The notes: generated by a model not told the origin, from the letters alone. A stretch of DNA of 64,000 bases from an uncultured Planctomycetia bacterium (GCA_964572255.1 CAZNEE010000001.1:139520-203519); one strand, 5' to 3'; shown: positions 16,045 through 45,668, counted from the first letter of the stretch. A program made the numbers and translations.

Positions 16045-16050
16045 AACAAT

Positions 16051-16920
16051 ATGAGAATATTTTTCAAGATATATACCCTGATCATCTTTACAGCAATTAT
16101 TCTCTTGGCCGGATCGGATATTTTGTGCGCCGCTTCCGGAAGTGTGAAAAAAGGTGATAAGTATTATGAAAAAGAGGAATACGACGCGGCTTTGGAAGAA
16201 TACGATGCGGCGCTTTCGAAAAAACCGGATGATCCCGTGATCCAATATAATCGTGCGGCTACGTTTTATCGCAAAGGAGATTTCGCAAAGGCCATAGAAT
16301 CTTTTTTGAAGTCTTTTGCTTCCGAGAAAAAAGGTTTGGAAGAGAGTTCGGCCTATAATGTCGGGAATAGTAAATATCGTATCGGTGAGAAGGTCCAAAA
16401 AAAGGACCCCAAAGCTGCTTTGAAAGATTTTGGCGAAGCTTTGGAATACTATAAAAGATCCATGGAGATCGACCCGGATGATATGGACGCGAAGATCAAC
16501 TACGAATATACGCTGAAAAAAATGAATGATCTTAAACAAGAGTCCCAGGAACAGCAACAACAGCAACAGCAGCAGGACCAGCAGCCTCAACAAGAACAGG
16601 AGAAACAGGATCAGGAGCAAAAGGACGAACAGCAAAAGAAAGACCAGAAGCAGGAGAAACAGGATCAGCAGAAGGAACAGGAGAAGCAGCAGCAAGAGAA
16701 ACAGCGAGAACAGGAGCAACAACAGAAACAGCAGGAACAACCCAGACCGCAATTTCCAAAAGGCGGAAAGGGTGATACAATAGAAAAGCCCGAGAGCGAA
16801 ATGACTGAAGAAGAAGCAGAAATGCTTTTAAGAGGTCAGGATGAAGAAGAAGCGAGAATGAGGGCGGAACAAAGAAAAGGCAAGAGGTCTTATCAGCCTC
16901 AAGCGTTAATAAATTGGTGA
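16051..16920 (+). CDS. batC: TPR-repeat protein BatC with a Q/E/K-rich low-complexity C-terminal region
   Basis: Signal peptide, TPR repeats (YYEKEEYDAALEEYDAAL...), then about 70 residues of QQQQQQQQDQQPQQEQEKQDQEQK... Confidence 0.7.
   Translation: MRIFFKIYTLIIFTAIILLAGSDILCAASGSVKKGDKYYEKEEYDAALEEYDAALSKKPDDPVIQYNRAATFYRKGDFAKAIESFLKSFASEKKGLEESSAYNVGNSKYRIGEKVQKKDPKAALKDFGEALEYYKRSMEIDPDDMDAKINYEYTLKKMNDLKQESQEQQQQQQQQDQQPQQEQEKQDQEQKDEQQKKDQKQEKQDQQKEQEKQQQEKQREQEQQQKQQEQPRPQFPKGGKGDTIEKPESEMTEEEAEMLLRGQDEEEARMRAEQRKGKRSYQPQALINW
16545..16745. repeat. CAG/CAA/GAG-rich coding low-complexity tract (poly-Q/E/K) inside batC
   Basis: Directly visible (cagcaacaacagcaacagcagcagg...). It also explains the spurious Leu-rich minus ORF 15991..16752. 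Confidence 0.8.
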
Positions 16921-18749
16921 AGATGAAAAAGATCTTAATTATAGGTATGATTTTTTCCTTGCTTGCGGGCATTGCCGCGGCGCAGGATGATATCGGGCTG
17001 GAAGCCAAACTTGAGAGAGATCGTGTTTCTATCGGGAATCCGGTTTACCTCTATTTAACATTTTACGGCAGTCAGAGTTTATCTAAACCCGAAATGGAGT
17101 CGATAGATGGCTTGCAGATAAGTTATGTGGGGCCCTCAACGAGAATATCTGTTGTTAACGGGAAAGTCACGAGATCCATCACTCATACATTTTTGCTGCT
17201 GCCGCTCAAGGAAAGAGATTTCAAGATAGGGCCTTTTTCGGTCGAATACAAAGGTCAAACTTACCAGGCCGGCCCCGTTGAACTTATAGCAAGCAGTGTT
17301 CCTGCCCCGGGCAGGAGATCGCAGGCTCCGCCGGCATCTGTGCCTGTCGGAACTGCCACCGCAGATAAAAAACCTTATATCGGAGACAGGTTATTTTTGA
17401 CAATGGACACGACTAAAAAACGTGTTTACTTGAATGAAATGATACCGATAACGATTAAGTTATATGTATATAACATGAGCCTCAGAGAGATCGAGTACCC
17501 CGTATATTCACATGAAGGTTTTTCTGCCGGCAAAGCGACCGAACCGACAAGACAGAAAGAAATGTATGCGGGGAATATGTATGATGTGCTTGAATTCCGT
17601 CAGGTGCTTTATCCGTTAAAAGAGGGAGATTATACTTTAGGCCCCGCGAGTCTTAGTGCTAAGATCCTGACAAAGGAAAGAACCAAGCGTTCCGCGTTCT
17701 TTGACTGGAGCATATTTGAAGATGATTTTTTCTTTGGGAGTCAGACGTATCCGGTAGAGGTAGAGTCAAAAACAGTTCCTATAACTGTGCTTCCTTTCCC
17801 CGAAAAGGGCAAACCGCAGGATTTTAGCGGTACTGTCGGAGATTTTGATCTGGAAGTCCTGATCGAACCAAAAAAAGTCAAGGTGGGGGATCCTATTGTG
17901 GTACGTATGATCGTAAGCGGCAAGGGCAACCTTGATACCGTGACGGTCCCGTACATTTCAGTCCCGGATGATTTTAAAACTTACGAACCGCAAGTCACTA
18001 AAAAAGAAAAAATTAAGATTTATGAGAAGATCATTATACCTAAAAGTGAAAATGTAAAAGAGATCCCTGAGGTTACGTTCTCATTTTTCAACCCTGATTT
18101 TGGAAGGTATGAAACAATTAAAAAGGGCCCTTTCCCGGTTGAAGTTGCCAGCCAGCCTGATCAGGAGAAGGCGGTCAGGTTTGTTTCGGTCCCCGGAACG
18201 GAACAATTGATCTATCCGGAAGAAAAATTAGGAAGTGATATTATTCATATTAAAGAAGATATAGGAAAAGTTTACATGAAGGGGAAGAGGCTGCATAATA
18301 ATCCGTTCTTCTGGCTTATGCAGTCAATCCCGGCAGTTTTGTTCGGGGCGTTTTTCATCGCATATCGAAGAAAGGAAAAATTACGCACCGATAAAAGATA
18401 CGCAAGAGCCTTTCACGCTCCGAGAAAAGCACGAAAAGGCATCGCAAGAGCCAAAGCTTATTTGGATAAAGGTAATACAGCCCAGTTTTATGATGCTGTT
18501 TTTAAAGTACTTCAGGATTATCTGGGCGATAAATTCAATCTTCCCAAAGGAAGTATTACCAGCCAGATCATTGAGAACGAGTTAAGGCCTGCCGGGTATG
18601 ATGAAAAAGTCCTTGATATGCTGCACGAGGTATTCTTGAAATGTGAAATGGCCCGTTATGCTTCCTCGGTCCCCGGCGGGGAAGAAGCGGCAGAAGTCAT
18701 GGAAAAGGTAAAAAGCATTTTTGATTATATTGAGAGATCAAAAAAATGA
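16914..18749 (+). CDS. batD: BatD-like oxygen-tolerance protein
   Basis: About 600 aa with an N-terminal signal peptide, beta-rich repeats and a C-terminal TM plus cytoplasmic tail, in the canonical operon position. Confidence 0.7.
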   Translation: MVKMKKILIIGMIFSLLAGIAAAQDDIGLEAKLERDRVSIGNPVYLYLTFYGSQSLSKPEMESIDGLQISYVGPSTRISVVNGKVTRSITHTFLLLPLKERDFKIGPFSVEYKGQTYQAGPVELIASSVPAPGRRSQAPPASVPVGTATADKKPYIGDRLFLTMDTTKKRVYLNEMIPITIKLYVYNMSLREIEYPVYSHEGFSAGKATEPTRQKEMYAGNMYDVLEFRQVLYPLKEGDYTLGPASLSAKILTKERTKRSAFFDWSIFEDDFFFGSQTYPVEVESKTVPITVLPFPEKGKPQDFSGTVGDFDLEVLIEPKKVKVGDPIVVRMIVSGKGNLDTVTVPYISVPDDFKTYEPQVTKKEKIKIYEKIIIPKSENVKEIPEVTFSFFNPDFGRYETIKKGPFPVEVASQPDQEKAVRFVSVPGTEQLIYPEEKLGSDIIHIKEDIGKVYMKGKRLHNNPFFWLMQSIPAVLFGAFFIAYRRKEKLRTDKRYARAFHAPRKARKGIARAKAYLDKGNTAQFYDAVFKVLQDYLGDKFNLPKGSITSQIIENELRPAGYDEKVLDMLHEVFLKCEMARYASSVPGGEEAAEVMEKVKSIFDYIERSKK

Positions 18750-26269: not shown

Positions 26270-26298
26270 TTGACAAATAATAGTCTATATGGTATACT
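26270..26298 (+). promoter_or_regulatory. Near-consensus sigma70 promoter (TTGACA-17-TATACT) driving a short non-coding transcript
   Basis: -35 at 26270-26275 and -10 at 26293-26298, exact in the sequence. Confidence 0.5.
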
Positions 26299-26304
26299 TT
26301 AAAT

Positions 26305-26455
26305 GTTAGTAAAGTCAGTTATTTCTTACCAATCGAAAGGGGTGATGCACTCATAAAAATTTCCGAAATTAAAAAATAAGGGACGGTTCTGTACAAGGTA
26401 AAGATTTAAGCAAAAAGGAGGCAAAAATAAGCAGAATTCGTCCCTTATTTTTTAC
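26305..26455 (+). ncRNA. Candidate small RNA (~150 nt) between the promoter and a hairpin + U-tract terminator
   Basis: The 11-bp stem AATAAGGGACG (26375-26385) pairs with CGTCCCTTATT (26439-26449), followed by TTTTTT. No ORF longer than 13 aa lies inside. The class is unknown. Confidence 0.3.
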
Positions 26456-26513: not shown

Positions 26514-26542
26514 TTGACTTATTCATACCTTTTTGTTATATT
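26514..26542 (+). promoter_or_regulatory. Near-consensus sigma70 promoter (TTGACT-17-TATATT) ending 9 nt before the giant-ORF ATG, implying a leaderless or near-leaderless mRNA
   Basis: -35 at 26514-26519 and -10 at 26537-26542. No Shine-Dalgarno sequence lies between the -10 and the ATG at 26552. Confidence 0.45.
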
Positions 26543-26551
26543 AACTACATC

Positions 26552-29500
26552 ATGAAAAACGTGGGAAAGTTAAAAATAATAAAAGTCATATCTATCATTG
26601 TGCTCATCACATTTTCTTTTCAGAATATTACATGGGCAAATCCTGATATTTTCCAATCTCGCAGTATTGTTGCCGGGCAGCACATGGCCGTAATGGGCTA
26701 TGGGCGCCAGTATGGCTTTAATCTGGCCGCTATGATGTGTTTTGCAAAGATCGGAAATGAATTTTTTGCGAATATCCTCAAAAACGAATTACCTCCGGAT
26801 CATGAAAGATGGGATGAACATCATCAATATCTGGTCAAAGAGGTCAATGAATATATCAATACTTCACCGCACATATTAAGCCAAATAAAAAGGGATGTTA
26901 CCAGGCGCGATATTTCTTTTGACGGGGAAACATTAAAGATCAAGTATAAGAACGTTGAGGGTAAGGAATTTATTGTTTGCCTGGCAAGGGGCGTAAACGA
27001 TAAGCCGGGGCAGTATGAGATAATTAACGGTATCCCGCAGATCGACGGTATTTTGGTGGAGTTCCGGGATCCATTGGATAAAGCTCAGGATACAAGGCAA
27101 GACAAAGTGATCAAAAAAGACGGGGATGCGGTCAAACCTTCAGATGTTTCTGATGAGACAAAAGCCGATAACGAACAGGACCAAAAAAATGATATTGAAG
27201 GAAAAACAGATCTACGCGATGGTTTTACAAGGATCGAACTTCTCAGTGCGGTTGCCGCTGCGGGCTTAATTCTTCCTATTGTAGTCAGTTACCCGACACT
27301 GCTATTACCGATATTAATAGCTTCTATTAGTTCGTTGATTCTCACTTTGGCATATTATTATTCATTTCCTTTATTTAAGGACCTTATCGGAAAAATCTCC
27401 TTGAGAAATCCTTTTATTTTCACCGAGCTTGCCGGTACGGGTATAAAAGTTCCTTCAGGACTGCAGTTGCCGGTACTTTTTGCCGCGCCTGATGACAATA
27501 AGGGTAAAGGCGGAAAAGGGGAGCAAAAGCCGCAGGGCAAAAAGCCAGTTCCTGTCGGAAAGAAAAAGGGCAAAGTGGTAGCAAGACCGGCAAAGAAAAA
27601 AGTGTTTTTAGACAATCGATCTCTTTTAAACACTCTTTTAAGGCATGCGAGGATTTTTAACGTAAAAAATAGAGAACAAGCCGAACAAAAACTTGAAGAG
27701 ATTTTAAGCAGCCTTTCAATGACGATGAAACCGCAGGGAGGAGTTTCTACCAGTGTAAAAGATATAGGAGATGTATTAAGGGATCTCAACGGCCAAGGTA
27801 ATGTATTTTTCCGCGATGTCAAGCATAGATCCACAGCCGGCCATAAGGGAAGATCTTCTTCCAGCAGCCGTACCGGATATAAATATTTTGACCGTTTGGT
27901 CGATAACCGCGTTTTTCAGGACAGGATAAAAAGAACACTCAGTACAGTGAGATTTTACATGGGGAATAATCCCACAATTTTCGGCCAGCCCAGAAGATTG
28001 TCCAGGGTATATTTCGGATCAAGTACCGGATATTTTGATGTGAGGGATAACCTGCAGTATGCTCATGTTGTCGATATTGTTGTTTTAGTTGACGGAAAGT
28101 CGCATATCAAGCCTGTTGCTGATATTCCCAAGACCCGAGAAGAGATCGAAGAGGCTTTTCATGAATTCAGGAATGTCCGGAAAATAAATGTCGAGGTTGT
28201 AGGATTCGATGAACTTGAGGCTGCTGTACAAGGGGACCCAAGCTTGCCTATAGAAAGGATCGAGCATTTGCGCACGCTGCTTATAAAAATTTACAGAGAA
28301 TATGTGCAGATCGCAGGTTCAAGCCTTGTGAAGGAAAATAACGAGGAAATTTTCAGTGAAAGGCTTAAATTGCTCGAGATAGCTTATGTAAACAGACTTG
28401 TCCGGGAGCTTAATGAATTTGCAGGCAAAAAAGAGAAGCTGAGAGAAGCGCATGAAAAAAAAGAAGACGAGAGAGTTCAATTGCCGATTAAGCGCAGAGA
28501 GAATTTAAAGAAAGCAAATGAAGAACTGGGGAGCATTGAAATGCGGATCGAAGAGCTTGAGGTGCAAGCATCTTCATTGTTCGGGACAACTGATCTAACG
28601 GCCATCGATCAGAAAGTTGCGGAAGAGTTGCCTATGTTGTCAGCTAAATGGAATGAGGCCTATATAAGAGAAGGAGGCGAGGGGGGCAAGGCAAGCATTA
28701 AAAATCCGCAGAAACATGTGGAGTATCAACAGATTTATGAGCAATATCAGGAAAAACAGGGATTACTTAACGCTCTAAAAAATCTGCATAAGGAAAAAAT
28801 AGCGATCGAAGAAAAAATAAAAGAAGTCAGGGGCAGTACAAGCGGAAAAGTCGAAGAGATTAATGACCAGTTAAAGCAAATAAGATTGGAAATAGAAGAA
28901 ACAGAAAGGAATTATGAACTTTTGTGTAAACGCATAGAAGACGCGATGTACGGCCAAACGTATATAACGCCGGGAACTGTTATAGGCGGTAAATATCAGA
29001 TAGTCAGTGAACTTGAAAAAGGCGGTTTCGGGATAGTTTATAACGCAAAATATATACCTTCATATGTGGAACAAAGCATTGATGACCGCGAGCGTGAGAG
29101 GATGAGGAATGCGGAATTAGCTATAAAATTCTTTGTCCCGGCGATCGCTCTTTCTGAAAGACAGCGTGAAGTCGCGGAAAAAAGGTTTTTAAATGAAAGG
29201 AAGACTCACAAAGAATTGTCGGAGGACAGCGCGCCTATTCCTATGTTTAGAGACGAAGGAGAGTATGCTGATTTACATTATCTGGTGATGGATAGAGTGC
29301 CTTTAAAAGGAAAAGGAATGACCCTTGATAAGATCATCGCGGAAATAGAGGCCGGACATATTAAGTTAGATTATCGCCAGAAAGTTATTTTATATTGGGC
29401 AATAACTAAAAGGCTCAGAAAATTTCATGGTAAAGGGGGGATCCATAGAGATATTAAGCCGGCACAGTTTATGATACCTATGGCTGAGGATGGATCGCTT

Positions 29501-32500
29501 GTTATCCCGAGTATTGACACACCGGCATTCGACGATTTTGTTGATGAAATTTATCTTCTTGATATGGGAACGGTCAAAAAGGGGAAACAAACAGACGATG
29601 GGGATGCTTTTGTTATGGGGGATCTTTTAGATGTTTCTCAGCAGTTAACCCAGCAGGCAAAATCACTTCCGTTCTCTCCTTCGTATATGTCACCTGAGAC
29701 AGTCGAACTTCTTTATAGCTTTGACGATAGTTCAAAATCAAAGGGCGAAAAAACCATAATAACATTCTCGGATGGGAAAGAGTCCGCTGCGCCAGATGGT
29801 GAAAGCGTCGAGGTTGCCGAGGTCGTCGAGGAAGAGCAATCCCATCAAAAGCCAAAAGTCACCCTTGGTACACCAACTGATATATATTCCTGGGGGGTTT
29901 CAGGTTATGAACTTTTTACAACAGAACTCACAACAAGCGGCGCGAAGAACCCGGTCGCCATAATGGGCGAGGTTTTGAACAATGAGGTGGAGTCTCCGCG
30001 AAGGGTTATTGCAAGATTGAACAGGGCGATGGAACCTAATGCAAAGACACCAAGAGAGGTCTTAGATAAGATTCATGCCAATTTATATAAGATCTTATCA
30101 AGCGAAAAGGATCCTGCCAAGAGGGTTGTCATTAAAAGCAATGACCCGAAGGATGTTGTGTGGGACGAGGTTATTGTGCGGGGGAACGAGGAAAATTTAA
30201 GAGATCGCCTGGAGGATATATTATGGCAAGATGATTCTCTTTTTGATTTGGGTTTAATGAGTTCAGATGAAACCGCAGTCGAATCCATAATAAACAGGCT
30301 TTGCAATAATATTACATATCTTGTTTTCCCGAGAATACCGCAAATGGACGAACACATGGAATTATTGCTTCTTAAATGTCTTGAGAAAGATCCTGAAAAT
30401 CGCCCTTCAGTAAAAGTCTTGGATGACGAGATAGATAAGTTGCTTCATAACAGGCAAGAGGCCATGATCTATCAGCCGGCAGGCGAAGCAAGCTGGGGCA
30501 CCCGTTTTGGTAAGTGGGTCGAACGTAATGCAAAATTAGCTTTAACGTTAGCCGGTGTGATCATACTTACTCTGGTTACTGCAGTGGTGGGTTTAGTGGT
30601 TTATTTTGATCAAAAAACCACCACGTTGAACGAAGCTGCCGAAAAAGCGGAAGCCGCGAGAACAAGAGCCGAAAGACAAACGAGAGAAGCCGAGACGGCG
30701 CAAAAAACACTTGCAGAGGAAAAGGACAAGCTTACTCAGGAGAAGGAAAAATTCGAAAAAGAAGTTGAAAGGAAGAACGAGGAATTGGCCGATAAAGAAA
30801 AACTGTTAGCCGCGAAGGATATTGAGATCAGGAAAAAGAGGGAAGAATTGTTAAAAATGCAGAAAGAGCTGGACGCAAAGACCAAACAGGTGGAAGAGGT
30901 AGCGAAGCAGCTGGCGGAGTTTGAAAAGAAAAAAGGTATTTACGCCAAGGACATCGATAATCTGACGGAAAAAAAAGGAAGCCTTCAGGAATCCATGAAA
31001 GAGATGACCCTGGCGATGAAGAAACTTGAAGAGGATAAGAAGCGGCTTCTTATCGATAAAAAGAACCTTGAGGAAGAGAAGAAAAAACTCGAAGAGGAAA
31101 AAGAAGTTCTCGCAAGGAAGTTCAAAGAGCTCAGCGAAAGCGTCCCGGGCATTTTTGAGGAGGCTAAAAAGCTGGCAAGAAATTATGAAGACGAAGAAGC
31201 TTTCGAAGCTTTAGCTAATCTGCCGCATTGGGGCATTGACAACGAAGAGAGCCTCGCGAAATTAACCCTCGGTTTTGACGAAGTGTTCAAGATATTCGTG
31301 GACAACGGACAATTCAATGAGGCTGTAAAGTTGGAAGAAGTCAGAAGGGATCTTTTCAGATTCGGCTTCAGTAAACTGGAGACGGAAGCATCAAAGAAGA
31401 CCTTTGAAAGCGAGATCAATGCGGTAAAAGCCATGTTGGCGGCGGGGTATCATGATAAAGCCATGAGCCAGACCGTCAACCTGATGGAAAAAACAATATA
31501 TAAAAATTCCAAAGAATGGATGGAGATATTAAAGGGTCTGTTCGCGGGAATAGTGATCGAGCATGCATATTATGAAAAGGATGCCCAGAAAAGAACCGAC
31601 AGGATAAACAGCGCGAAGGCCCTGATAGATGAGACCGGCAGCGAGGATGAAAGATATTTCCGTTTTGCCGGCTTTTATATGGTCTCAGGGGATTACGCAG
31701 CAGCGGCCAAATACTATAAAAGGTATTGTGACCACTGGGCGGAACAGGCTAAAGAAAAAGACATAGCCGAAGACGTTAAGAAAAACAGGCTCGAAAAAGC
31801 TTCATATGGCTTGATCTCGAGTGCCGTGGCCCATCTAAAAAGAGCGGAGGCCGCAAAGAGCAAAGATAAAAAGGAAGTAGCTGAATATGCGATGAAAATA
31901 CTCCAGGAGTGGGAGAAATCCTATACCGAACAAAAAGAGCACTTGGCATGGGCCAATTTCGTAAAAGGCGAATTGTACGTACTGATGAAAGAACGGGACA
32001 AGGCCGAGGAAGCCTATAATGGGTCCCTTAAACTTGCGAATGAAAATGGCCTGAAAGTTATTATCGCTTTATGTGAAGCGAGATTGGGGCAAGAGGTCAA
32101 GTTCAGCGATCTGTTAAATACGTGGACGACTTTTATTTCAAGCGAAGTGCCCCTGCCTTTTAGGGCGGAAATAAGAAGTATCTTGAGAAGCGCGACAACA
32201 AAATACCGGTCCGAACTTCAAAAAGCCAAACGTGAAGCCGAGGAAGAAAAAAGGAAGAAAGAGGAAGAGGAGCGGAGAAAAAAAGAAGCAGAGGAAAAGA
32301 TCCAGGGCAAACTTCTTGAGGATATAAAATGGCCGAAAGAGATCGATATCAAACTCATTCAGATAAATAAGGGGATACAGACTCTTACTCGCAATAAAGG
32401 GTTCGGAGATAAGCAGCAGAGGAATGATGCTGAAAAACAGCTTGCCAAGCTTATGGAAGAAAAAGAAAAACTGGAAGCGAAAAAAGCTAAATATTTAACG

Positions 32501-33280
32501 CAAGAACCACTCAAAGCATCAACGGGCGGACCGATGGCAGTAGTTTTCAGTTTAAACATTTTGTTAGGAGTTGTGACAAGTCTTGCGAAAAGCTTATCTA
32601 GTAAATTTCCAAAACTTTCTGGATATAGCGAAGAAGATAAGGGTAAAGGGTTGATATTATTTGCCGATGATATGATATATGCTGATAAAGAAGTGGATTA
32701 TTCTGCTGTATTTGATCTGGATAAACTTGCAAAAACTATAGGGGAAGAAGGTTCTTCTTTGATCGGTAAGATAGTAATTTATGCGGAAAATATCAATAAG
32801 GCAAAAATACTGGAGACAATTATAAAAACAGCCAATAAAAATGCTGTCGTGGAAATAGTAACAAGCGATAAGCTTGTGGCGAGCAATAATGGAGATTGCC
32901 GAGAATCGACAATTAAAGACTTATTAGAGTATTGCAGACATCCGAAGAACGGCATTGGGTTCAAAAGTCATAAAGATGTGCTCGGCATAATACGCGGGCG
33001 TCTTTCGGAGAAAGAAAAACAAAAATTGGAAATAGAATACAGAAGCACTGCTCATAAGATACCGCCCATAGTTGAATTTGTAGAGATAAAAAAGGGAAAC
33101 GTTTATTCGATTATGGAAGCTGTAAATATACTTATTAACCAGCTTGATCCGGAAAAGAGACAAGATGTCAGCTCTTTAGTTATACTTGCGCTCAAACCGA
33201 TAGTAAAAATGTCTGAAACCTTACAGGAAGAATATAATAAATATATCCATCAGGTCATGGCTCTCGAAAGCGCCGCGTAA
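26552..33280 (+). CDS. Giant (2242 aa) multidomain membrane protein with an embedded Ser/Thr protein kinase-like domain, long coiled-coils, a TPR-like helical region and a Lys-rich segment
   Basis: Uninterrupted 6.7-kb ORF. Hanks motifs are present: GxGxxG (EKGGFGIVY), AIK (ELAIKFF), catalytic loop HRDIKPAQ, a DFG variant (LLDMGTV), an APE-like SPE (YMSPE) and DIYSWGVSG. There are hydrophobic segments at residues 1-28, 225-275 and 1330-1352, and heptad-rich stretches such as KEKEKFEKEVERKNEELADKEKLL... Confidence 0.8.
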   Translation: MKNVGKLKIIKVISIIVLITFSFQNITWANPDIFQSRSIVAGQHMAVMGYGRQYGFNLAAMMCFAKIGNEFFANILKNELPPDHERWDEHHQYLVKEVNEYINTSPHILSQIKRDVTRRDISFDGETLKIKYKNVEGKEFIVCLARGVNDKPGQYEIINGIPQIDGILVEFRDPLDKAQDTRQDKVIKKDGDAVKPSDVSDETKADNEQDQKNDIEGKTDLRDGFTRIELLSAVAAAGLILPIVVSYPTLLLPILIASISSLILTLAYYYSFPLFKDLIGKISLRNPFIFTELAGTGIKVPSGLQLPVLFAAPDDNKGKGGKGEQKPQGKKPVPVGKKKGKVVARPAKKKVFLDNRSLLNTLLRHARIFNVKNREQAEQKLEEILSSLSMTMKPQGGVSTSVKDIGDVLRDLNGQGNVFFRDVKHRSTAGHKGRSSSSSRTGYKYFDRLVDNRVFQDRIKRTLSTVRFYMGNNPTIFGQPRRLSRVYFGSSTGYFDVRDNLQYAHVVDIVVLVDGKSHIKPVADIPKTREEIEEAFHEFRNVRKINVEVVGFDELEAAVQGDPSLPIERIEHLRTLLIKIYREYVQIAGSSLVKENNEEIFSERLKLLEIAYVNRLVRELNEFAGKKEKLREAHEKKEDERVQLPIKRRENLKKANEELGSIEMRIEELEVQASSLFGTTDLTAIDQKVAEELPMLSAKWNEAYIREGGEGGKASIKNPQKHVEYQQIYEQYQEKQGLLNALKNLHKEKIAIEEKIKEVRGSTSGKVEEINDQLKQIRLEIEETERNYELLCKRIEDAMYGQTYITPGTVIGGKYQIVSELEKGGFGIVYNAKYIPSYVEQSIDDRERERMRNAELAIKFFVPAIALSERQREVAEKRFLNERKTHKELSEDSAPIPMFRDEGEYADLHYLVMDRVPLKGKGMTLDKIIAEIEAGHIKLDYRQKVILYWAITKRLRKFHGKGGIHRDIKPAQFMIPMAEDGSLVIPSIDTPAFDDFVDEIYLLDMGTVKKGKQTDDGDAFVMGDLLDVSQQLTQQAKSLPFSPSYMSPETVELLYSFDDSSKSKGEKTIITFSDGKESAAPDGESVEVAEVVEEEQSHQKPKVTLGTPTDIYSWGVSGYELFTTELTTSGAKNPVAIMGEVLNNEVESPRRVIARLNRAMEPNAKTPREVLDKIHANLYKILSSEKDPAKRVVIKSNDPKDVVWDEVIVRGNEENLRDRLEDILWQDDSLFDLGLMSSDETAVESIINRLCNNITYLVFPRIPQMDEHMELLLLKCLEKDPENRPSVKVLDDEIDKLLHNRQEAMIYQPAGEASWGTRFGKWVERNAKLALTLAGVIILTLVTAVVGLVVYFDQKTTTLNEAAEKAEAARTRAERQTREAETAQKTLAEEKDKLTQEKEKFEKEVERKNEELADKEKLLAAKDIEIRKKREELLKMQKELDAKTKQVEEVAKQLAEFEKKKGIYAKDIDNLTEKKGSLQESMKEMTLAMKKLEEDKKRLLIDKKNLEEEKKKLEEEKEVLARKFKELSESVPGIFEEAKKLARNYEDEEAFEALANLPHWGIDNEESLAKLTLGFDEVFKIFVDNGQFNEAVKLEEVRRDLFRFGFSKLETEASKKTFESEINAVKAMLAAGYHDKAMSQTVNLMEKTIYKNSKEWMEILKGLFAGIVIEHAYYEKDAQKRTDRINSAKALIDETGSEDERYFRFAGFYMVSGDYAAAAKYYKRYCDHWAEQAKEKDIAEDVKKNRLEKASYGLISSAVAHLKRAEAAKSKDKKEVAEYAMKILQEWEKSYTEQKEHLAWANFVKGELYVLMKERDKAEEAYNGSLKLANENGLKVIIALCEARLGQEVKFSDLLNTWTTFISSEVPLPFRAEIRSILRSATTKYRSELQKAKREAEEEKRKKEEEERRKKEAEEKIQGKLLEDIKWPKEIDIKLIQINKGIQTLTRNKGFGDKQQRNDAEKQLAKLMEEKEKLEAKKAKYLTQEPLKASTGGPMAVVFSLNILLGVVTSLAKSLSSKFPKLSGYSEEDKGKGLILFADDMIYADKEVDYSAVFDLDKLAKTIGEEGSSLIGKIVIYAENINKAKILETIIKTANKNAVVEIVTSDKLVASNNGDCRESTIKDLLEYCRHPKNGIGFKSHKDVLGIIRGRLSEKEKQKLEIEYRSTAHKIPPIVEFVEIKKGNVYSIMEAVNILINQLDPEKRQDVSSLVILALKPIVKMSETLQEEYNKYIHQVMALESAA

Positions 33281-33411: not shown

Positions 33412-33798
33412 ATGTTCAGATTTGTAGCAGGAATGATAATCATTACACTTTTATTGGCTGTTCCCGTTACTGATTGTTTTGCTCAAAGAAGTTCTTCAGA
33501 TCTGCTTAAACAGGGTCTTCTTGGAGCAGGAGCAGGTGCTGTGGGAGGCGCGGCTTCAGGAGCTAAAGGGAGAGACGTCTGGAAAGGCGCCCTTGCTGGT
33601 GCCGGTGTCAATATTATAGGCGGCGCACTTCTTGATTCAATGAGCGGCGAGAAGGTAAAGGACGTCCAGCAGGTCGATTCCGTGAGCCCGAGAACAGCTT
33701 ATTCGGATGGTTATGAAGACGGGTACAGGAACGGTTATAAAAAAGGCTATACAGAAGGTTACCAAGAAGGCCTTAAAGAGTCATATCAATCCCGTTAA
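33412..33798 (+). CDS. Secreted glycine-zipper protein (Gly_zipper_2TM-like) with a C-terminal (D/E/N)GY repeat tail
   Basis: Signal peptide, then GAGAGAVGGAASGAKG...GALAGAGVNIIGGALL, then DGYEDGYRNGYKKGYTEGYQEG. RBS AAGGAGGG upstream. Confidence 0.6.
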   Translation: MFRFVAGMIIITLLLAVPVTDCFAQRSSSDLLKQGLLGAGAGAVGGAASGAKGRDVWKGALAGAGVNIIGGALLDSMSGEKVKDVQQVDSVSPRTAYSDGYEDGYRNGYKKGYTEGYQEGLKESYQSR

Positions 33799-33876: not shown

Positions 33877-34998
33877 ATGAAAAAAGATAATGAATCAAAA
33901 TCAAATCCGCTCTCGGAATTTCTCAGCGATAAGGAAGAGATAATTCTTCATGAAGAAGCATTGGTCGAAAGTATAAGGCGTTTTCAGGATCTTTTCGAGC
34001 AATCTCCTATAGGTGTTGCTCTATATGATTCGAAAGGCGAGATCCTGCTGACAAATAAGGCTTACCTGGAAGTTTTTGGGATCAGCTCATTTGGTGTGAT
34101 ACAGAAAAAGAATCTTTTTAAGAGTTTATTGCCTTTGGATGAAGGGGCAGAACTGCGCTCAGGAAAGTTCGTGCAGTATGAGCAGGAGTGTGATTTTGAA
34201 TCTTTGGGATACGAAACAAGCAGAGAAGGTTCCGGACATATCCTTTTTATAGTATCGCCTCTTCTTAGGGAAAATAAAGTGATCGCTTACATGGAACAGG
34301 TTCAGGATATTACGGAACGCAAAAAGATAGCGGAGTCGCAAAGACTTGCCCAGCTTGGAAGGCTGCTCTCGGATATAGCGCATGAAGTGAACAATCCCCT
34401 CATGATAATTTCAGGAAGAGCAGAACTTGCATTGATGGATGAGGTAAAAGACCCTGAGCTCAAGAAAACACTTGAGGTAATATTGGATCAGTGTTTTCTT
34501 GCAAAAGATATCATTCAGCGAGTCCTCAAATATGCAAGGTTGGGGAAAGTCGAAAAACATCCTTTAGATATAGCTCAAACATTGGACCTTATCTTGAATA
34601 TTCTTGACCATCAGTTCCGTATGTCAAATATAGAATTGAAAAGAGAAATTGATGCCGATCTTCCCAAGATATACGGCAATGAGAAGCAGTTTCAGGAAGT
34701 TTTCATGAATATCATACGCAACTCCGCCGATGCAATGCCTGACGGAGGGGTTATTGATGTAGCTGCCTCAAAAAATAAGGGTTTTATCAAAGTGCAGATA
34801 AAAGATAATGGGGTCGGCATTGAAAAAGATGTTCTATCCAGGATATTTGAGCCGTTTTTTACTACAAAACAAAAAGGGACCGGTTTAGGCCTGGCGATCA
34901 CATATTCGATCATCCAGGAGCATGGCGGAGAATTGAAATATGACAGTGAAATAGGCAAGGGTACAACAGCGACCATTTTACTGCCTTTTGCGGATTGA
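33877..34998 (+). CDS. Cytoplasmic PAS-domain sensor histidine kinase
   Basis: PAS region, HisKA H-box (IAHEVNNPLMIISGRAELA), and the N and G boxes (IRNSADAM, DNGVGI, GTGLGLAI). Confidence 0.85.
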   Translation: MKKDNESKSNPLSEFLSDKEEIILHEEALVESIRRFQDLFEQSPIGVALYDSKGEILLTNKAYLEVFGISSFGVIQKKNLFKSLLPLDEGAELRSGKFVQYEQECDFESLGYETSREGSGHILFIVSPLLRENKVIAYMEQVQDITERKKIAESQRLAQLGRLLSDIAHEVNNPLMIISGRAELALMDEVKDPELKKTLEVILDQCFLAKDIIQRVLKYARLGKVEKHPLDIAQTLDLILNILDHQFRMSNIELKREIDADLPKIYGNEKQFQEVFMNIIRNSADAMPDGGVIDVAASKNKGFIKVQIKDNGVGIEKDVLSRIFEPFFTTKQKGTGLGLAITYSIIQEHGGELKYDSEIGKGTTATILLPFAD

Positions 34999-35048
34999 AT
35001 TTTCAAGAATTAAAGCGCTCAAAGGTAGATGTTTTGAAAGGGGGGAAT

Positions 35049-40351: not shown

Positions 40352-43300
40352 ATGGAAGCTATGAAGGATAAACTGCACGTAGCATTCTTATGGCACATGC
40401 ACCAACCCTTGTATAAGGATTATCTTACAGGGAAGTATCATCTCCCCTGGGTAAGACTCCATGCCACGTATTCATACCTGGATATGATCTCCATACTCGA
40501 CAGGTTCCCGGATATCAAAGCCACTTTCAACTTAACCCCATCCCTGATCTGGCAGTTATTGGATATCTCTGAAAATAAAGATGTTGATGATATTTTTCTT
40601 AAGCTTACGGAAAAAGACGCGGATGATCTGACCGTTGAAGACAAATGCTTTATTCTGAAAAACTTCTTCTCCTGCGATCTTAAGAAGGCGATATTCCCAA
40701 TTCCGAAATATAAAGAGCTTTTTCTTAAAAGAGGCGACGATCTTAGCGAAGCAGCCTTAAAAAGCAAGATAAGGGATTTTAAGACAGAAGATTTCAGGGA
40801 TTTGCAGGTTCTTTTTAATCTTGTTTGGTGCGGGTTCACTTTGAGGGAAAAGGATCATTTGGTTAAAGGATTGTTCCACAAGGGGAAAAATTTCACTGAA
40901 GATGAAAAACGCTCTCTCATCAAGAAACAGCAGGAAGCCGTAAGCTCGATCATTCCTTCTTACAAAAAACTCCAGGATAAGGGGCAAATAGAAATATCCA
41001 CTTCACCCTTTTACCATCCCATCCTTCCGCTTCTATGTAAAGACAAGTCAGGAAAAGGATATGATTTTCGCGAGGACGCCAAGATCCAGGTAACCAGAGC
41101 GATCGAACTTTATGAAAAGGTTTTCGGGAGGAAACCAAAAGGTTTCTGGCCCCCGGAAGGGAGCGTAAGCCAGAGAATAATACCCCTTCTGGCGGATGAA
41201 GGCATCGAGTGGATCGCTACTGACGAAGGGATCGTGCTTGAATCATTTAAAGGCGAAGATATTCTCAGAGAAGAGCTTATATATAAGGCTTTTACCGCTG
41301 AAGAAGACGGCAGAGAGATAAGCATGGTCTTCAGGGACATTAATATATCCAACGCGATAAGTTTTAGATATGCGAATATGCCGGCAAAAAAAGCCTGTGA
41401 GGACATCATCGAGGATATTAAAGCTATTAAAAGGGGAAGGGAGTTTCATGACGGGGATCATTTAGTCTCTATCATATTGGATGGCGAGAACCCTTGGCCG
41501 TATTTTGAAGACGGAGGAAAAACTTTCCTTTCGGAAACTTACAGGCATCTTTCTTCCATGAAAGATATTGAGACCGTGACCATCGGCGATTATTTAAGCT
41601 CTACCGGCGAGAGAAAAAAAATAAAAAAACTCCACAGCGGTTCCTGGATAGACAGGAATTTCAATAAATGGATCGGGTCCCCGCAGAAGAACAAGGCGTG
41701 GGAATATTTAGAGAGAGTAAGAGAAGATCTTTTTAATTTCGAACACCCGAGCGAAAAAGCTCTGGAGGAACTTTATATAGCGGAGGGAAGCGATTGGTTC
41801 TGGTGGTATGATGATTTTGGAAGCGAAATAAATTTTGTGTTCGAAGAATTGTACAGGTTACATCTGTCCAATATCTACAGGATCATGGGAAGAAAAGTTC
41901 CCTATTACCTGACCGAGCCCATACCGGCGGGTCCGTCCGCTCAGAAAGTCCCCGAGGTGATAACTCCCGGAGAAATGGCCAGTTATCCCAAAGTTTTGAT
42001 CGTTTCATCGGAAGCTATACCTTTTGCGAAAACAGGCGGCCTTGCTGATGTCGCCGGCAGTCTGCCCAAATCCCTGGTTTCGCTTGGCTGTGATGTAAGA
42101 GTGATCATGCCGCTTTATAGAAGTGTAACGAGCGGGAACTTTCCGTTAACCAGAGAAGCGCGCAATATTAGGCACCCTCTTTTGGGCGGAGTGAGAGCGT
42201 TCAGACTATATTCAAATCGCTCAGGAGGCGTCACTACTTATTTTGTAAGAAGAAGAAAATATTTTTCAAGAGAAGGATTATACGGCACCGAGAGAGGCGA
42301 TTATCCCGATAACGGCATAAGGTTCAGTTTTTTCTCAAAGGCTTCTCTTGCCGCGATCAAAGCTATAGACTTTAAACCGGATATCATACATTGCAACGAT
42401 TGGCAAAGCGCGCTTATTCCTTTCTATCTGAAGTTCAGGTTGGGTGAAGATGATTTTTACCGGGGGATAAAGACCCTGTTCACAATACACAATATAGCCT
42501 ATCAGGGCGTTTTTAATAAAAGGATCATGAAAAAAGCGGGCATCCCCGAGGCTTTTTTCAACATGAATGATCTTGAATTTTACGGCAAGATAAATTTCAT
42601 GAAATCGGGAGTATTATACTCGGATGCTATAAGCACCGTAAGTCACCGTTATGCCGAAGAGATAATGACGGAAGAATATGGCTATAATCTTGACGGGCTT
42701 TTACGGTCAAAAAAGGACAGCCTTTACGGCATACCAAACGGCGTGGATTATTCGATATGGAGCCCGAAGAATGATAAATACATAAAAGCGAATTATGACC
42801 GGGCGACGATCGACAAGAAGAAGGAATGCAAGAAAGATCTTCTGGAATATACAAAACTTCCGCTTTCCGAGGATACGCCGTTACTTGGATGTGTTACGAG
42901 ACTGGCGGAACAAAAAGGCATGGACCTGTTCGCGAACATTATGAATAAAGTCATAAAACTGGGAGCGGGTGTTATAATACTCGGGAAGGGCAGTAATTAT
43001 TATAACAATCTCTTCAAAGACCTGGTCAGGCAGTATCCAAGGAACATTTACGTTTGCAATGATTTTAACGATCCCTTGGCGCATAAGATCGAAGCTGGGT
43101 GTGACATGTTCATCATGCCTTCAAGATATGAACCTTGCGGTTTGAACCAGATGTACAGCATAAAATACGGTACACCTCCGGTTGTAAGGGCAACAGGGGG
43201 TTTGGATGATGTGATAATAGATTTTGATGAAAACGGGGAAAAGGGCAACGGGTTTAAGTTCGGTCCCGCTAAGGGGGATGCTCTTTTCTCGGCGATAAAA

Positions 43301-43444: not shown

Positions 43445-43445
43445 T

Positions 43446-45569: not shown

Positions 45570-45585
45570 AACTATACTATTTTTA

Positions 45586-45615
45586 TTGACATGTATTATA
45601 TCGTAGAGGTATAAT
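45586..45615 (+). promoter_or_regulatory. Putative sigma70 promoter (TTGACA-18-TATAAT) upstream of the DUF4912-glgB genes
   Basis: -35 at 45586-45591 and -10 at 45610-45615. Confidence 0.4.
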
Positions 45616-45668
45616 TTCACCGGGTAGTATACTTTACTTAAACCTTAACTGATAATATAAGAGGCTAA

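What the first reader, a model, noticed from the sequence alone, without database searches (positions are those of the whole stretch)
26552..33280. Giant 2242-aa ORF with an embedded atypical Hanks-type Ser/Thr kinase domain, TM segments, ~250 residues of continuous coiled coil and a TPR-like block
This single uninterrupted 6.7-kb ORF is the largest gene in the window. Residues ~810-1150 (nt ~28970-30000) carry every core Hanks motif, several of them in atypical form:
- GxGxxG: EKGGFGIVY.
- VAIK: ELAIKFF.
- Catalytic loop: HRDIKPAQ, with Gln where Asn is normal.
- DFG: replaced by DMG (LLDMGTV).
- APE: SPE.
- DxWSxG: DIYSWGVSG.

The kinase domain sits between a double hydrophobic hairpin (residues 225-275) and a single TM (residue ~1330). 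N-terminal is a signal-anchor and a poly-Lys stretch (GKGGKGEQKPQGKKPVPVGKKKGK). After the TM come an SMC-like coiled coil (nt 30640-31150), a TPR-like helical domain, a second charged coil (KAKREAEEEKRKKEEEERRKKEAEEK) and an uncharacterised ~280-aa C-terminal domain.

The architecture matches nothing I recognise. The unusual catalytic-loop and DFG substitutions suggest either a divergent active kinase or a pseudokinase scaffold.

Downstream genes are a glycine-zipper secreted protein, a PAS histidine kinase and a lipoprotein. Together with the giant ORF they may form one signalling or envelope module.
Basis: partly seen in the sequence, partly recalled or inferred. Interest (0 to 1): 0.8.

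Follow-up and report, generated by a model that had tools for sequence, protein, structure and literature searches.

The report
Giant fast-evolving membrane Ser/Thr kinase
The 6.7-kb gene is real and encodes a 2,242-residue membrane protein built around a genuine but atypical eukaryotic-like Ser/Thr kinase domain; it belongs to a rare, undescribed family that holds a fixed chromosomal position in a small bacterial lineage yet diverges far faster than its neighbours.

Summary
ORF 26552..33280 (+) is uninterrupted, 2,242 aa, and an independent read-level assembly recovers it identically.

Residues about 806-1300 are a Hanks-type kinase:
- Pfam Pkinase passes its curated cut-off.
- Sequence matches to solved PknB/StkP-type kinases.
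- An AlphaFold model matches 1,085 solved kinase chains.

Lys859, Asp967 and Asp1004 are all present, so it is not a pseudokinase by the usual three-residue rule. Three features are atypical: Gln972 for the catalytic-loop Asn, DMG for DFG, and Glu822 for the first loop Gly.

New findings:
- The protein belongs to a rare family of 1.6-3.0-kaa proteins, about 14 clusters among 1.84 billion representatives, with one shared core architecture.
- Seven further loci hold the gene at one collinear position, next to the same radical-SAM gene. Flanking proteins are 55-85% identical; the giant protein is only 26-45%.
- The conserved N- and C-terminal alpha/beta domains match no Pfam family or solved protein.

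The "TPR-like" label is weak. The proposed functional module with downstream genes has no specific support. Membrane topology is unresolved, because a conserved signal peptide conflicts with a cytoplasmic kinase.

Most likely it is an active, coiled-coil-oligomerised, membrane-anchored signalling kinase. I rate it a new variant of a known kind, moderate interest.

The parts
26270..26298 (+). Promoter-like site (TTGACA-17-TATACT with TG) in the 310-nt gap upstream of the giant gene
   Evidence: Consensus scan, 11 of 12 matches. This is a consensus match only.
26514..26542 (+). Second promoter-like site (TTGACT-17-TATATT with TG). It ends 10 nt before the ATG, and no Shine-Dalgarno sequence is visible, so the mRNA may be leaderless.
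   Evidence: Inference only.
26552..33280 (+). Giant ORF, 2,242 aa plus stop codon
26552..26638 (+). Residues 1-29: Sec-type signal-peptide-like N-terminus (K-rich n-region, ~12-residue h-region, T-W-A|NPD). It is conserved across the family as ...FSxQNxxxA[ND]PD.
   Evidence: Cleavage is inferred, not tested.
26639..27223 (+). Residues 30-224: N-terminal domain. It is weakly conserved in the family and has no Pfam match.
27224..27367 (+). Residues 225-272: 48-residue hydrophobic double segment (hairpin). It is absent at this position in the other members scanned.
27404..27475 (+). Residues 285-308: junction motif RNPFIFTELAGTGIKVPSGLQLPV. It is shared with the divergent subfamily (P0013, P0014, P0015, P0019).
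27503..27574 (+). Residues 318-341: Lys/Gly/Pro-rich linker
27869..28321 (+). Residues 440-590: family-specific alpha/beta domain with invariant G489, S490, G493, F495 and H505 (YFGSSTGYFDV...H). No Pfam or PDB sequence relative was found.
   Evidence: (pLDDT 75-90)
28334..28945 (+). Residues 595-798: four long helices (coiled-coil hairpins) that end in the conserved LLCKRIEDA motif just before the kinase
28967..30451 (+). Residues ~806-1300: Hanks-type protein kinase domain. Key residues are E822-x-GGFG, K859, E882, H-R-D967-IKPA-Q972, D1004-MG, SPE 1047-1049, D1110 and R1284. Inserts lie at 973-1000, 1015-1040, 1050-1104 (specific to this protein) and ~1130-1260.
30536..30604 (+). Residues 1329-1351: transmembrane helix, conserved in nearly all family members, with the N-terminal flank positively charged
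30605..31147 (+). Residues 1352-1532: coiled coil. It gives compositional hits to RNase Y N-terminal, SMC and PspA models, all far below their cut-offs.
31148..32221 (+). Residues 1533-1890: conserved all-helical domain (GIFEEAK...LGFDEV..DNGQF). It contains at most one weak TPR-like motif, at 1778-1832.
32222..32506 (+). Residues 1891-1985: second highly charged helical or coiled segment
32519..32596 (+). Residues 1990-2015: hydrophobic or amphipathic helix preceding the C-terminal domain. It is probably not a TM.
32639..33277 (+). Residues 2030-2242: conserved Rossmann-like alpha/beta C-terminal domain (LILFADD..SAVFDLD...YSIM.A) ending in ...ALESAA
   Evidence: (pLDDT 78, pTM 0.79)
33412..33798 (+). 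Downstream 128-aa secreted Gly-rich protein. Its glycine-zipper hits are below cut-off. It is a syntenic neighbour in related genomes and is not shown to be functionally linked.
33877..34998 (+). Downstream PAS-HisKA-HATPase_c histidine kinase, a syntenic neighbour. Its partner receiver gene, present in relatives, is missing here.

Best explanation
The ORF encodes a membrane-anchored, multi-domain Hanks-type Ser/Thr protein kinase. It belongs to a previously undescribed family restricted to one small bacterial lineage.

**Proposed mechanism.** Each step is marked as shown or inferred.
1. Shown: the kinase fold and the catalytic Lys859, Glu882, Asp967 and Asp1004 are present and conserved across the family. 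Inferred: the domain binds ATP and transfers phosphate. Gln972 would take over the metal-binding role of the usual Asn, and Met1005 would fill the DFG-Phe position of the regulatory spine.
2. Shown: long helical or coiled-coil segments flank the kinase on both sides, and a transmembrane helix lies between the kinase and the second coil. Inferred: the protein forms parallel dimers or oligomers in the membrane. The kinase would be switched by trans-autophosphorylation of its unusually long, Ser/Thr- and acid-rich activation segment and post-APE insert (1015-1104).
3. Inferred, about 50% likely: the kinase and the basic linker face the cytoplasm, and the region after the TM faces the periplasm. 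That region comprises the coiled coil, the helical domain and the Rossmann-like domain. This arrangement matches single-span PVC and PknB-type receptor kinases.
4. Shown: seven further loci hold the gene in the same collinear block, each next to the same radical-SAM gene where the contig extends that far. The gene diverges two to three times further than its flanking genes and gains or loses whole modules. Inferred: its partners or ligands change quickly, or much of its length is only loosely constrained scaffold.
For: **Kinase identity.**
- Pfam Pkinase: E=3.9e-10, 40 bits against a 31.7-bit cut-off.
- PDB sequence hits to a Staphylococcus kinase and to StkP, with a second stretch at the C-lobe end.
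- PADLOC and PHROG kinase models cover residues 806-1014.
- AF2 model: mean pLDDT 73.8. Foldseek finds 1,085 PDB chains at E<=1e-3, and all top hits are protein kinases, including PknB at TM 0.70.

**Catalytic residues.** K859, D967, K969, D1004, G1006, D1110 and R1284 are invariant or nearly so in 15 family members. Relatives score up to 1.7e-28 on Pkinase across the full profile.

**Family.**
- An exhaustive HMMER search of 1.84 billion representatives gave only 16 proteins at E<1e-10.
- Apart from the query itself, 13 of them are 1.1-3.0-kaa proteins with the kinase at the same relative position. A 14th member, P0019, scored 2.1e-9.

**Oligomerisation elements.** AF2 models helices at 595-798. 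A heptad scan marks 1350-1532. The TM is conserved, with +2 or +3 charge before it in most members.

**Position and rate.**
- Synteny is seen in L002, L082, L084, L085, L086 and L087.
- Flanking proteins are 57-84% identical to the window's, against 26-28% for the giant protein.
- Among the other orthologues the figures are 55-85% against 29-45%.

**Precedent.** Most PVC Ser/Thr kinases are single-span membrane proteins with a cytoplasmic kinase and a periplasmic helical-repeat tail (PMC11032199).
Against: - No activity data exist.
- Gln at the catalytic-loop Asn position occurred in 0 of 132 catalytic loops of generic bacterial kinases. Met or Leu at the DFG Phe is rare: 3 of 94.
- The first glycine of the loop is lost.
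- **Topology conflict.** The conserved N-terminus looks like a cleavable signal peptide. In most relatives no TM lies between it and the kinase, which by parity would put the kinase outside the cytoplasm.
- In relatives P0013 and L003, an HATPase_c domain lies across an odd number of predicted TMs from the kinase. One ATP-dependent domain would therefore be extracytoplasmic in any model.
- The coiled-coil assignment for 1350-1532 rests on a crude heptad scan and on compositional HMM hits.
Confidence: 0.5

Rival explanations
1. Exported or host-directed kinase. The N-terminal signal peptide is cleaved. The whole N-terminal ~1,300 residues, kinase included, are translocated. The TM at 1329-1351 is a stop-transfer anchor, and the C-terminal ~900 residues stay in the cytoplasm. 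The kinase would then act in the periplasm, at the cell surface or inside a partner or prey cell.
For: - A canonical signal peptide is conserved in every complete member scanned except P0011: positive n-region, ~12-residue h-region, small residues at -3 and -1.
- Only one TM follows in most relatives, and it comes after the kinase.
- In relatives, the ATP- or cytoplasm-typical modules lying after the TM (HATPase_c in P0013 and L003, HAD in P0019) would then be cytoplasmic.
- The gene diverges quickly and swaps modules, as surface or interface proteins often do.
- One relative comes from a MAG labelled Omnitrophota. That phylum is reported to be largely host-dependent and rich in very long membrane proteins (PMC10066038; bioRxiv 10.1101/2023.11.21.568195).
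Against: - The periplasm lacks ATP, yet the catalytic residues are conserved.
- Charge bias at the post-kinase TM (+2 or +3 before it, about 0 after it, in most members) points to a cytoplasmic kinase side.
- In this protein a Lys-rich linker (318-341) follows the hydrophobic hairpin, which also suggests a cytoplasmic location.
- In PVC kinases studied so far, the kinase domain was always predicted to be cytoplasmic (PMC11032199).
Confidence: 0.25
2. Pseudokinase scaffold. The kinase fold is kept as a nucleotide- or protein-binding module without phosphotransfer, and the giant protein is mainly a structural or assembly platform.
For: - Three simultaneous departures from consensus occur in this protein: Glu822 for loop Gly, Gln972 for Asn, and DMG for DFG.
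- Its Pkinase score is the weakest of the family members scanned individually: 40 bits, against 57-90 bits in relatives.
- Large disordered inserts sit within the domain.
Against: - Lys859, Asp967 and Asp1004 are all present. The usual operational definition of a pseudokinase is loss of at least one of these three residues (established knowledge, from memory).
- Glu882 and Arg1284 are also present.
- 13 of 15 relatives keep the Asn, and all keep the Lys/Asp/Asp triad. The family is therefore under catalytic constraint.
- Gln is a conservative, metal-capable replacement.
Confidence: 0.2
3. One functional module with the downstream glycine-zipper protein, the PAS histidine kinase and the 149-aa putative lipoprotein.
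For: The order giant gene, small Gly-rich protein, histidine kinase recurs in the window and in L002, L082, L085 and L086. Divergent relatives carry an HATPase_c domain fused into the giant protein itself.
Against: - The entire ~20-kb neighbourhood is collinear in these genomes: metH, mnmG, radical SAM, HMGL, aldolase, exonuclease III. The adjacency therefore carries no specific signal.
- Family members in other clades have unrelated neighbours: SurA and aldolase II, or ProRS, RimP and NusA.
- The giant gene has its own promoter-like sites, and a 131-nt gap precedes the next gene.
- The window genome has lost the receiver gene that follows the histidine kinase in relatives.
Confidence: 0.12
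4. Artefact: a chimeric or mis-assembled ORF, or several genes fused by sequencing error.
For: None was found. The only hint is that one distant relative (L003) is split into two overlapping ORFs.
Against: - The identical 2,242-aa product appears in four sources and on seven contigs, including an independent read-level assembly.
- Relatives of 1.8-3.0 kaa share the same domain order end to end.
- Both the N-terminus and the C-terminus are conserved.
Confidence: 0.02

Closest known systems
Single-span membrane Hanks-type Ser/Thr kinases of the PVC superphylum with C-terminal TPR or WD40 tails (Planctomycetota survey, PMC11032199)
   Same: - The kinase is followed directly by one transmembrane helix and then a long helical protein-interaction region.
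- The lineage is PVC-related: source records are labelled Planctomycetia and Omnitrophota.
- The accessory-domain content is lineage-specific and fast-changing.
   Different: - The kinase is not N-terminal. About 800 residues precede it: a signal-peptide-like N-terminus, an unknown domain, a hydrophobic hairpin, a family-specific alpha/beta domain and a coiled coil.
- The helical tail does not pass any TPR model.
- There is an additional conserved Rossmann-like C-terminal domain.
- Length is 2.2-3.0 kaa.
- The catalytic loop carries Gln in this protein, and DLG or DMG replaces DFG in most of the family.
PknB / StkP / Stk1 PASTA receptor kinases (nearest solved sequences: 4eqm, 9ruk, 5u94)
   Same: These share the Hanks fold and give the best sequence-level PDB matches (E=6e-5). 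PknB gives a fold match at TM 0.70. The kinase-TM-sensor logic is shared, and activation by dimerisation and activation-loop autophosphorylation is the natural model.
   Different: - No PASTA domains are present.
- Sequence identity is only about 14-16% in structural alignments.
- Four large inserts lie inside the kinase domain.
- The flanking architecture is completely different.
Very long multi-domain membrane proteins of Omnitrophota ('Archaeovorins' and related; bioRxiv 10.1101/2023.11.21.568195 and 10.64898/2026.06.07.730766)
   Same: - One family member lies in an Omnitrophota MAG.
- Relatives carry HATPase_c, HAD and HD modules, which the 2026 preprint lists in its 'Module 1' signalling content.
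- They are membrane-anchored, modular and carry ambiguous localisation predictions.
   Different: - Those proteins are 10 to 60 times longer and are dominated by HEAT repeats, glycosyltransferases or repeat scaffolds.
- Neither paper mentions a Hanks kinase-centred family in the passages searched.
- This protein lacks all of their signature domains.
PD-T4-6 single-gene anti-phage Ser/Thr kinases (PADLOC)
   Same: Their kinase-domain models hit residues 806-1014, with a best E of 1.9e-17.
   Different: Similarity is confined to the generic kinase core. The matching PD-T4-6 profiles are only 292-547 positions long. The window protein sits among collinear housekeeping genes, not in a defence-island context.

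Membership tests
Hanks-type (eukaryotic-like) protein kinase superfamily, Pfam PF00069 | Score above the curated Pfam gathering threshold | tested here: met
   40.0 bits against a 31.7-bit cut-off, E=3.9e-10, residues 853-1051. All 15 family members hit the model.
Hanks-type (eukaryotic-like) protein kinase superfamily, Pfam PF00069 | Bilobal protein-kinase fold | tested here: met
   The AF2 model of residues 400-1328 gave 1,085 Foldseek PDB hits at E<=1e-3. The top 50 are all protein kinases.
Hanks-type (eukaryotic-like) protein kinase superfamily, Pfam PF00069 | Beta3 Lys, alpha-C Glu, HRD Asp and DFG Asp present | tested here: met
   K859, E882, D967 and D1004 are present and are invariant or nearly invariant in the family alignment.
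Hanks-type (eukaryotic-like) protein kinase superfamily, Pfam PF00069 | Catalytic-loop Asn (HRDxKxxN) and full GxGxxG loop | tested here: not met
   Gln972 replaces the Asn; 0 of 132 catalytic loops in generic bacterial kinases carry Gln. Glu822 replaces the first Gly. These are departures within the superfamily, not grounds for exclusion.
Hanks-type (eukaryotic-like) protein kinase superfamily, Pfam PF00069 | Phosphotransfer activity | not testable with these tools
   This requires a recombinant-domain assay.
Pseudokinases (operational definition: loss of VAIK Lys, HRD Asp or DFG Asp) | At least one of the three catalytic residues missing | tested here: not met
   All three are present.
PASTA receptor kinases (PknB, StkP) | Extracellular PASTA repeats after the TM | tested here: not met
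   No PASTA hit was found in Pfam or NCBIfam.
TPR-repeat proteins | Repeats passing TPR family thresholds, or a detectable 34-residue internal repeat | tested here: not met
   - TPR_12 scores 15.5 bits against 30.1, and TPR_2 and TPR_8 are also below cut-off.
- Only 1 of 15 members hits each of TPR_12 and TPR_19 at E<0.01.
- The family profile hits only designed helical repeats, at E>=0.016.
- hhalign self-comparison finds no repeat.
RNase Y / SMC / PspA (coiled-coil hits) | Score at the family cut-off and presence of the catalytic or head domains | tested here: not met
   Scores are 17-27 bits against cut-offs of 32-850 bits, over residues 1335-1593 only. The similarity is compositional coiled-coil resemblance.
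HAD phosphatase or SDR Rossmann folds (C-terminal domain) | Strong fold match plus the family motifs (HAD DxDx[TV]; SDR TGxxxGxG) | tested here: inconclusive
- Best Foldseek hit is an SDR at E=2.8e-4 and TM 0.33.
- The FADD..D and FDLD acidic motifs exist in the main subfamily but are not conserved in the divergent one.
- No Pfam or PDB sequence match was found.
Omnitrophota giant proteins ('Archaeovorins') | Length >=30,000 aa, with HEAT, glycosyltransferase or similar content | tested here: not met
   The protein is 2,242 aa and carries none of those domains. The definition is taken from bioRxiv 10.1101/2023.11.21.568195.
The giant-kinase family defined here (P0001-P0008, P0010-P0015, P0019) | Shared order: signal-like N-terminus, GSxTGYFD alpha/beta domain, coiled coil, LLCKRIEDAQ plus kinase, TM, coiled coil, GIFEEAK helical domain, C-terminal Rossmann-like domain ending in -[AS]A | tested here: met
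   Full-length alignment A1 and sub-alignments A3-A7. N- and C-termini compared.

The most novel reading that the evidence does not exclude
The family may be a set of exported Hanks kinases. In this reading a conserved cleavable signal peptide and a single stop-transfer helix after the kinase put a catalytically intact Ser/Thr kinase outside the cytoplasm. The kinase would sit on a fast-evolving, module-swapping giant protein in a PVC/Omnitrophota-like lineage. It would then work at the cell surface or inside a partner or prey cell, making this a bacterial envelope-spanning effector kinase of a kind not described before.
Probability: 0.2. Interest if true: 0.8.

Novelty: new variant of a known kind. 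Interest (0 to 1): 0.5.

Why it matters
Bacterial eukaryotic-like kinases are common, and so is their combination with a membrane helix and helical repeats. On that score the core finding is ordinary. Four features are not ordinary:

- **Undescribed family.** It has two conserved domains that match no Pfam family and no solved protein.
- **Fixed position, fast sequence change.** The gene holds one chromosomal position across a lineage, yet it diverges two to three times further than every neighbour and swaps whole enzymatic modules: HD, LMW phosphatase, HAD and HATPase_c.
- **Topology paradox.** A conserved signal peptide is followed by a single TM after the kinase. If the signal peptide is real, an ATP-dependent kinase would sit outside the cytoplasm.
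- **Unusual catalytic loop.** The natural Asn-to-Gln and Phe-to-Met/Leu substitutions occur in an otherwise intact kinase.

Resolving the topology would show whether this is another receptor kinase or an exported kinase at a cell-cell interface.

Tried and rejected
**Searches that led nowhere.**
1. Word-indexed homologue searches:
   - The whole protein found only itself, because coiled-coil words filled the 8,000-candidate list.
   - The N-terminal 640 aa found nothing, not even itself.
   - A coil-free family alignment was swamped by generic kinases.
   - The family came only from the exhaustive HMMER search with the kinase region.
2. The genome-collection scan chose the generic kinase catalytic loop as its pattern. 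It returned mostly unrelated kinases and only two true family loci, L002 and L003.
3. The metagenome scan failed with the 15-sequence alignment. A closer subset gave one locus.
4. The viral-contig scan found no relative.
5. Cluster look-ups gave no organism names, so the taxonomy of the window itself is not established.
6. Profiles of the N-domain, C-domain and helical domain against PDB sequences and Pfam at E<=10 gave nothing consistent.
7. The afdb50 fold library was unavailable.
8. Rfam on the whole window gave no match. The upstream hairpin is not more stable than shuffled sequence (z = -1.1).

**Ideas considered and rejected.**
- Assembly artefact.
- Membership of TPR, RNase Y or SMC families.
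- Membership of the PD-T4-6 defence kinases.
- Membership of the Archaeovorins.

**Lead not supported.** From memory, the GS...D motif of the N-terminal domain recalled a Pol-beta-type nucleotidyltransferase. No sequence evidence supports this, and the putative acidic positions are not conserved. I do not claim it.

Full report
**1. The observation**

The window holds an uninterrupted ORF at 26552..33280 on the + strand: ATG start, 2,242 codons. It is the longest in the window; the next longest are 1,132 and 1,030 aa.

Exactly the same protein is on record from NCBI, JGI, ENA and Logan, on seven contigs. The longest contig is 526,890 bp. An independent read-level assembly of run SRR6963311 translates to the same sequence. 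An assembly artefact is therefore excluded for practical purposes.

**2. The kinase**

Four independent lines show a Hanks-type kinase:
- Pfam Pkinase passes its curated threshold: 40 bits against 31.7, E=3.9e-10, residues 853-1051.
- phmmer against PDB sequences finds a Staphylococcus PknB-like kinase (4eqm, E=6e-5), StkP and CK1. A second aligned stretch at residues ~1240-1307 matches the end of the C-lobe.
- PADLOC PD-T4-6 and PHROG kinase models cover residues 806-1014.
- An AlphaFold2 model of residues 400-1328, built on a 14-sequence family alignment, has mean pLDDT 73.8. Foldseek returns 1,085 solved chains at E<=1e-3. All top hits are protein kinases: Hrr25, DYRK2, CLK1, CaMKII, and PknB at target TM-score 0.70.

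The domain spans about 806-1300, not 810-1150. It is interrupted by:
- an insert between the catalytic loop and DMG;
- a long, low-confidence activation segment (1015-1040);
- a post-APE insert unique to this protein (1050-1104);
- a large insert in the C-lobe.

*Active or dead?* Lys859, Glu882, Asp967, Lys969, Asp1004, Asp1110 and Arg1284 are present, and they are invariant or nearly so in the family. By the usual three-residue rule (Lys/Asp/Asp; established knowledge, from memory) this is not a pseudokinase.

Three residues are atypical:
- **Gln972 for the catalytic-loop Asn** (codon CAG). Only this protein and P0002 have Gln; the other 13 relatives have Asn. Among 132 catalytic loops of 119 generic bacterial kinases, 130 have Asn and none has Gln.
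- **DMG for DFG.** The family mostly has DLG. Generic kinases have Phe in 88 of 94 cases.
- **Glu822 for the first loop Gly.** At least 90% of the family have Gly.

I read this as a divergent but probably competent kinase, with about 20% probability that it is a pseudokinase.

**3. It is not an orphan**

The word-indexed searches failed. An exhaustive HMMER search of 1.84 billion cluster representatives with residues 791-1328 gave 1,298 hits at E<=1e-3 but only 16 at E<1e-10. Apart from the query itself, 13 of those 16 are 1.1-3.0-kaa proteins with the kinase at a similar relative position. A 14th member, P0019, scored 2.1e-9.

A full-length alignment of 15 members shows one shared core, in this order:
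1. a signal-peptide-like N-terminus with a conserved ...FSxQNxxxA[ND]PD;
2. an N-terminal domain;
3. an alpha/beta domain with invariant G489, S490, G493, F495 and H505 (YFGSxTGYFDV...H);
4. about 200 residues of long helices ending in LLCKRIEDAQ;
5. the kinase;
6. one TM helix;
7. a coiled coil;
8. a ~360-residue helical domain (GIFEEAK...LGFDEV..DNGQF);
9. another charged coil;
10. a C-terminal alpha/beta domain ending in ...ALESAA. All complete members end in -[AS]A.

Members differ by whole modules. Most carry two copies of an extra 'HExxE' domain that this protein lacks. P0013 carries HATPase_c. P0019 carries HD, LMW phosphatase and HAD domains.

This protein uniquely has a 48-residue hydrophobic hairpin at 225-272. 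It shares a junction motif, RNPxxFxELAGTGxxxPxGxxxP, with the divergent subfamily.

**4. The other domains**

*C-terminal domain (2030-2242).* It models well: pLDDT 78, pTM 0.79. It is a Rossmann-like three-layer fold.
- Best Foldseek matches are SDRs at E ~3e-4 and TM 0.33.
- No Pfam or PDB sequence relative was found.
- Its acidic motifs are not conserved in the divergent subfamily.

It is a new domain family with a generic fold.

*N-terminal alpha/beta domain (440-590).* It models at pLDDT 75-90. It also has no Pfam or PDB sequence relative. It could not be fold-searched separately.

*Helical domain.* 'TPR-like' is at best weakly true. All TPR hits fall below their cut-offs. Only one family member hits each TPR model at E<0.01. 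The family profile touches only designed helical repeats, at E>=0.016. No internal repeat is detected.

*Coiled coil after the TM.* It is about 180 aa by a crude heptad scan. The hits to RNase Y, SMC and PspA models are compositional.

**5. Genomic context and rate**

The same gene order recurs wherever the contigs extend far enough, in the window and in seven further loci: L002, L082, L084, L085, L086, L087 and the read-level assembly L001. The order is:

metH, mnmG, radical SAM, GIANT, small Gly-rich protein, histidine kinase, (receiver, TRAM methyltransferase), small protein, HMGL-like, KDPG aldolase, exonuclease III, radical SAM.

| Comparison | Flanking proteins | Giant protein |
|---|---|---|
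| Window against the syntenic loci | 57-84% identical | 26-28% |
| Among the other orthologues | 55-85% identical | 29-45% |

Against all seven loci compared, including P0002 (L083), identity to the window protein by region is: kinase 25-27%, N-domain 30-36%, helical domain 28-43%, C-domain 36-42%.

The gene is therefore a fixed, single-position component of this lineage that diverges two to three times further than its neighbours.

Because the whole block is collinear, the adjacency to the glycine-zipper and PAS-HK genes carries no specific functional signal. Family members in other clades have different neighbours:
- SurA and aldolase II for P0013 and L003;
- ProRS, an unknown 2,074-aa protein, RimP and NusA for P0019.

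Source records name a 'Planctomycetia' MAG (L002) and a 'Candidatus Omnitrophota' MAG (L003). The taxonomy of the window itself could not be established.

No relative was found on viral contigs. The papers on Omnitrophota giant proteins that I read do not mention such a kinase family in the passages searched.

**6. Topology is unresolved**

*Evidence for export of the N-terminal part.* The N-terminus has the anatomy of a cleavable Sec signal peptide: positive n-region, ~12-residue h-region, small residues at -3 and -1, mature N-terminus NPD. This anatomy is conserved. In most relatives the only other TM follows the kinase. Simple parity then puts the kinase outside the cytoplasm.

*Evidence for a cytoplasmic kinase.*
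- The flank before the post-kinase TM carries +2 or +3 charge in most members, while the flank after it is about neutral.
- In this protein a Lys-rich linker follows the hairpin.
- A kinase needs ATP.

*A further complication.* In P0013 and L003, an HATPase_c domain lies across an odd number of predicted TMs from the kinase. One ATP-dependent domain looks extracytoplasmic in any model.

I give about 50% to the receptor-kinase-like arrangement (kinase inside, C-terminal half outside). That arrangement matches described PVC kinases (PMC11032199). I give about 25% to the exported-kinase arrangement. The remainder covers missed or mispredicted membrane segments.

**7. Verdict**

The most likely mechanism is an active, membrane-anchored kinase that oligomerises through its flanking coiled coils. 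It would be regulated by autophosphorylation of its long activation segment, within a rapidly diverging, module-swapping scaffold.

It is a new variant of a known kind: a multi-domain bacterial Hanks kinase. It defines an undescribed family with two new domains and a topology puzzle. Interest is moderate (0.5). It would be high only if the exported-kinase reading proved true.

Noticed in passing
window 34995-35000, compared with L002 13013-14603, L082 10982-11392, L085 16968-18537 and L086 16906-18462: In syntenic relatives, the PAS histidine kinase is followed by a single-domain response regulator. In three of them a TRAM/tRNA-U5 methyltransferase gene comes next. In the window both are missing, and the kinase stop overlaps the start of the 149-aa ORF, leaving an orphan histidine kinase.
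   Followed up: partly
window 26370-26455: A ~23-bp stem with a long loop, followed by a U-run, lies between two promoter-like sites upstream of the giant gene. It could be the terminator of the metH-mnmG-radical SAM unit or a small RNA. It is not more stable than shuffled sequence (z = -1.1) and has no Rfam match.
   Followed up: partly
window 26514-26552: The -10-like hexamer ends only 10 nt before the ATG of the giant gene, and no Shine-Dalgarno sequence is visible. The mRNA may be leaderless.
   Followed up: no
window 1-64000: All the long ORFs, and every one that was given a family assignment, lie on the + strand. GC skew is positive in every 2-kb bin, so strand bias is extreme across the whole 64 kb.
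   Followed up: no
window 40352-47847: A glycogen-type cluster is built on GH57 enzymes. It includes a 1,030-aa GH57 plus starch-synthase (GT5/GT1) fusion, an amylase/4-alpha-glucanotransferase and a GH57 branching enzyme.
   Followed up: no
L003 7817-15503: In the Omnitrophota MAG, the family gene is split into two overlapping ORFs of 1,651 and 922 aa. The second ORF carries HATPase_c. The close relative P0013 is a single 2,504-aa ORF, so this may be a frameshift, a pseudogene or a genuine split.
   Followed up: partly
L089 705-6929 and L083 6199-9819: Two family members sit directly next to other very long ORFs that have no Pfam family on record: 2,074 aa, and more than 1,207 aa cut by the contig end.
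   Followed up: no
family proteins P0003-P0006, P0008, P0010, P0011 (not in the window protein): Most relatives carry two copies of an uncharacterised domain with motifs [ST]xH[FA]G...I[HY][IV]xK and HExxE[ML]xxH. One copy lies near the N-terminus and one lies before the C-terminal domain. Pfam found nothing there in P0003.
   Followed up: no
window 33235-33277 and the C-termini of all complete family members: Every complete member ends in ...[LI]x[SAET][AS]A (for example ALESAA). This conserved extreme C-terminus is reminiscent of recognition tags for C-terminal proteases or ClpXP. The resemblance is from memory and is untested.
   Followed up: no
window 11237-18749: A run of ORFs ends in a BatD-domain protein (611 aa). 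It may be a BatA-D-type aerotolerance-like operon, but only the BatD protein was scanned. A LonB-like protease gene lies at 16-1647.
   Followed up: no
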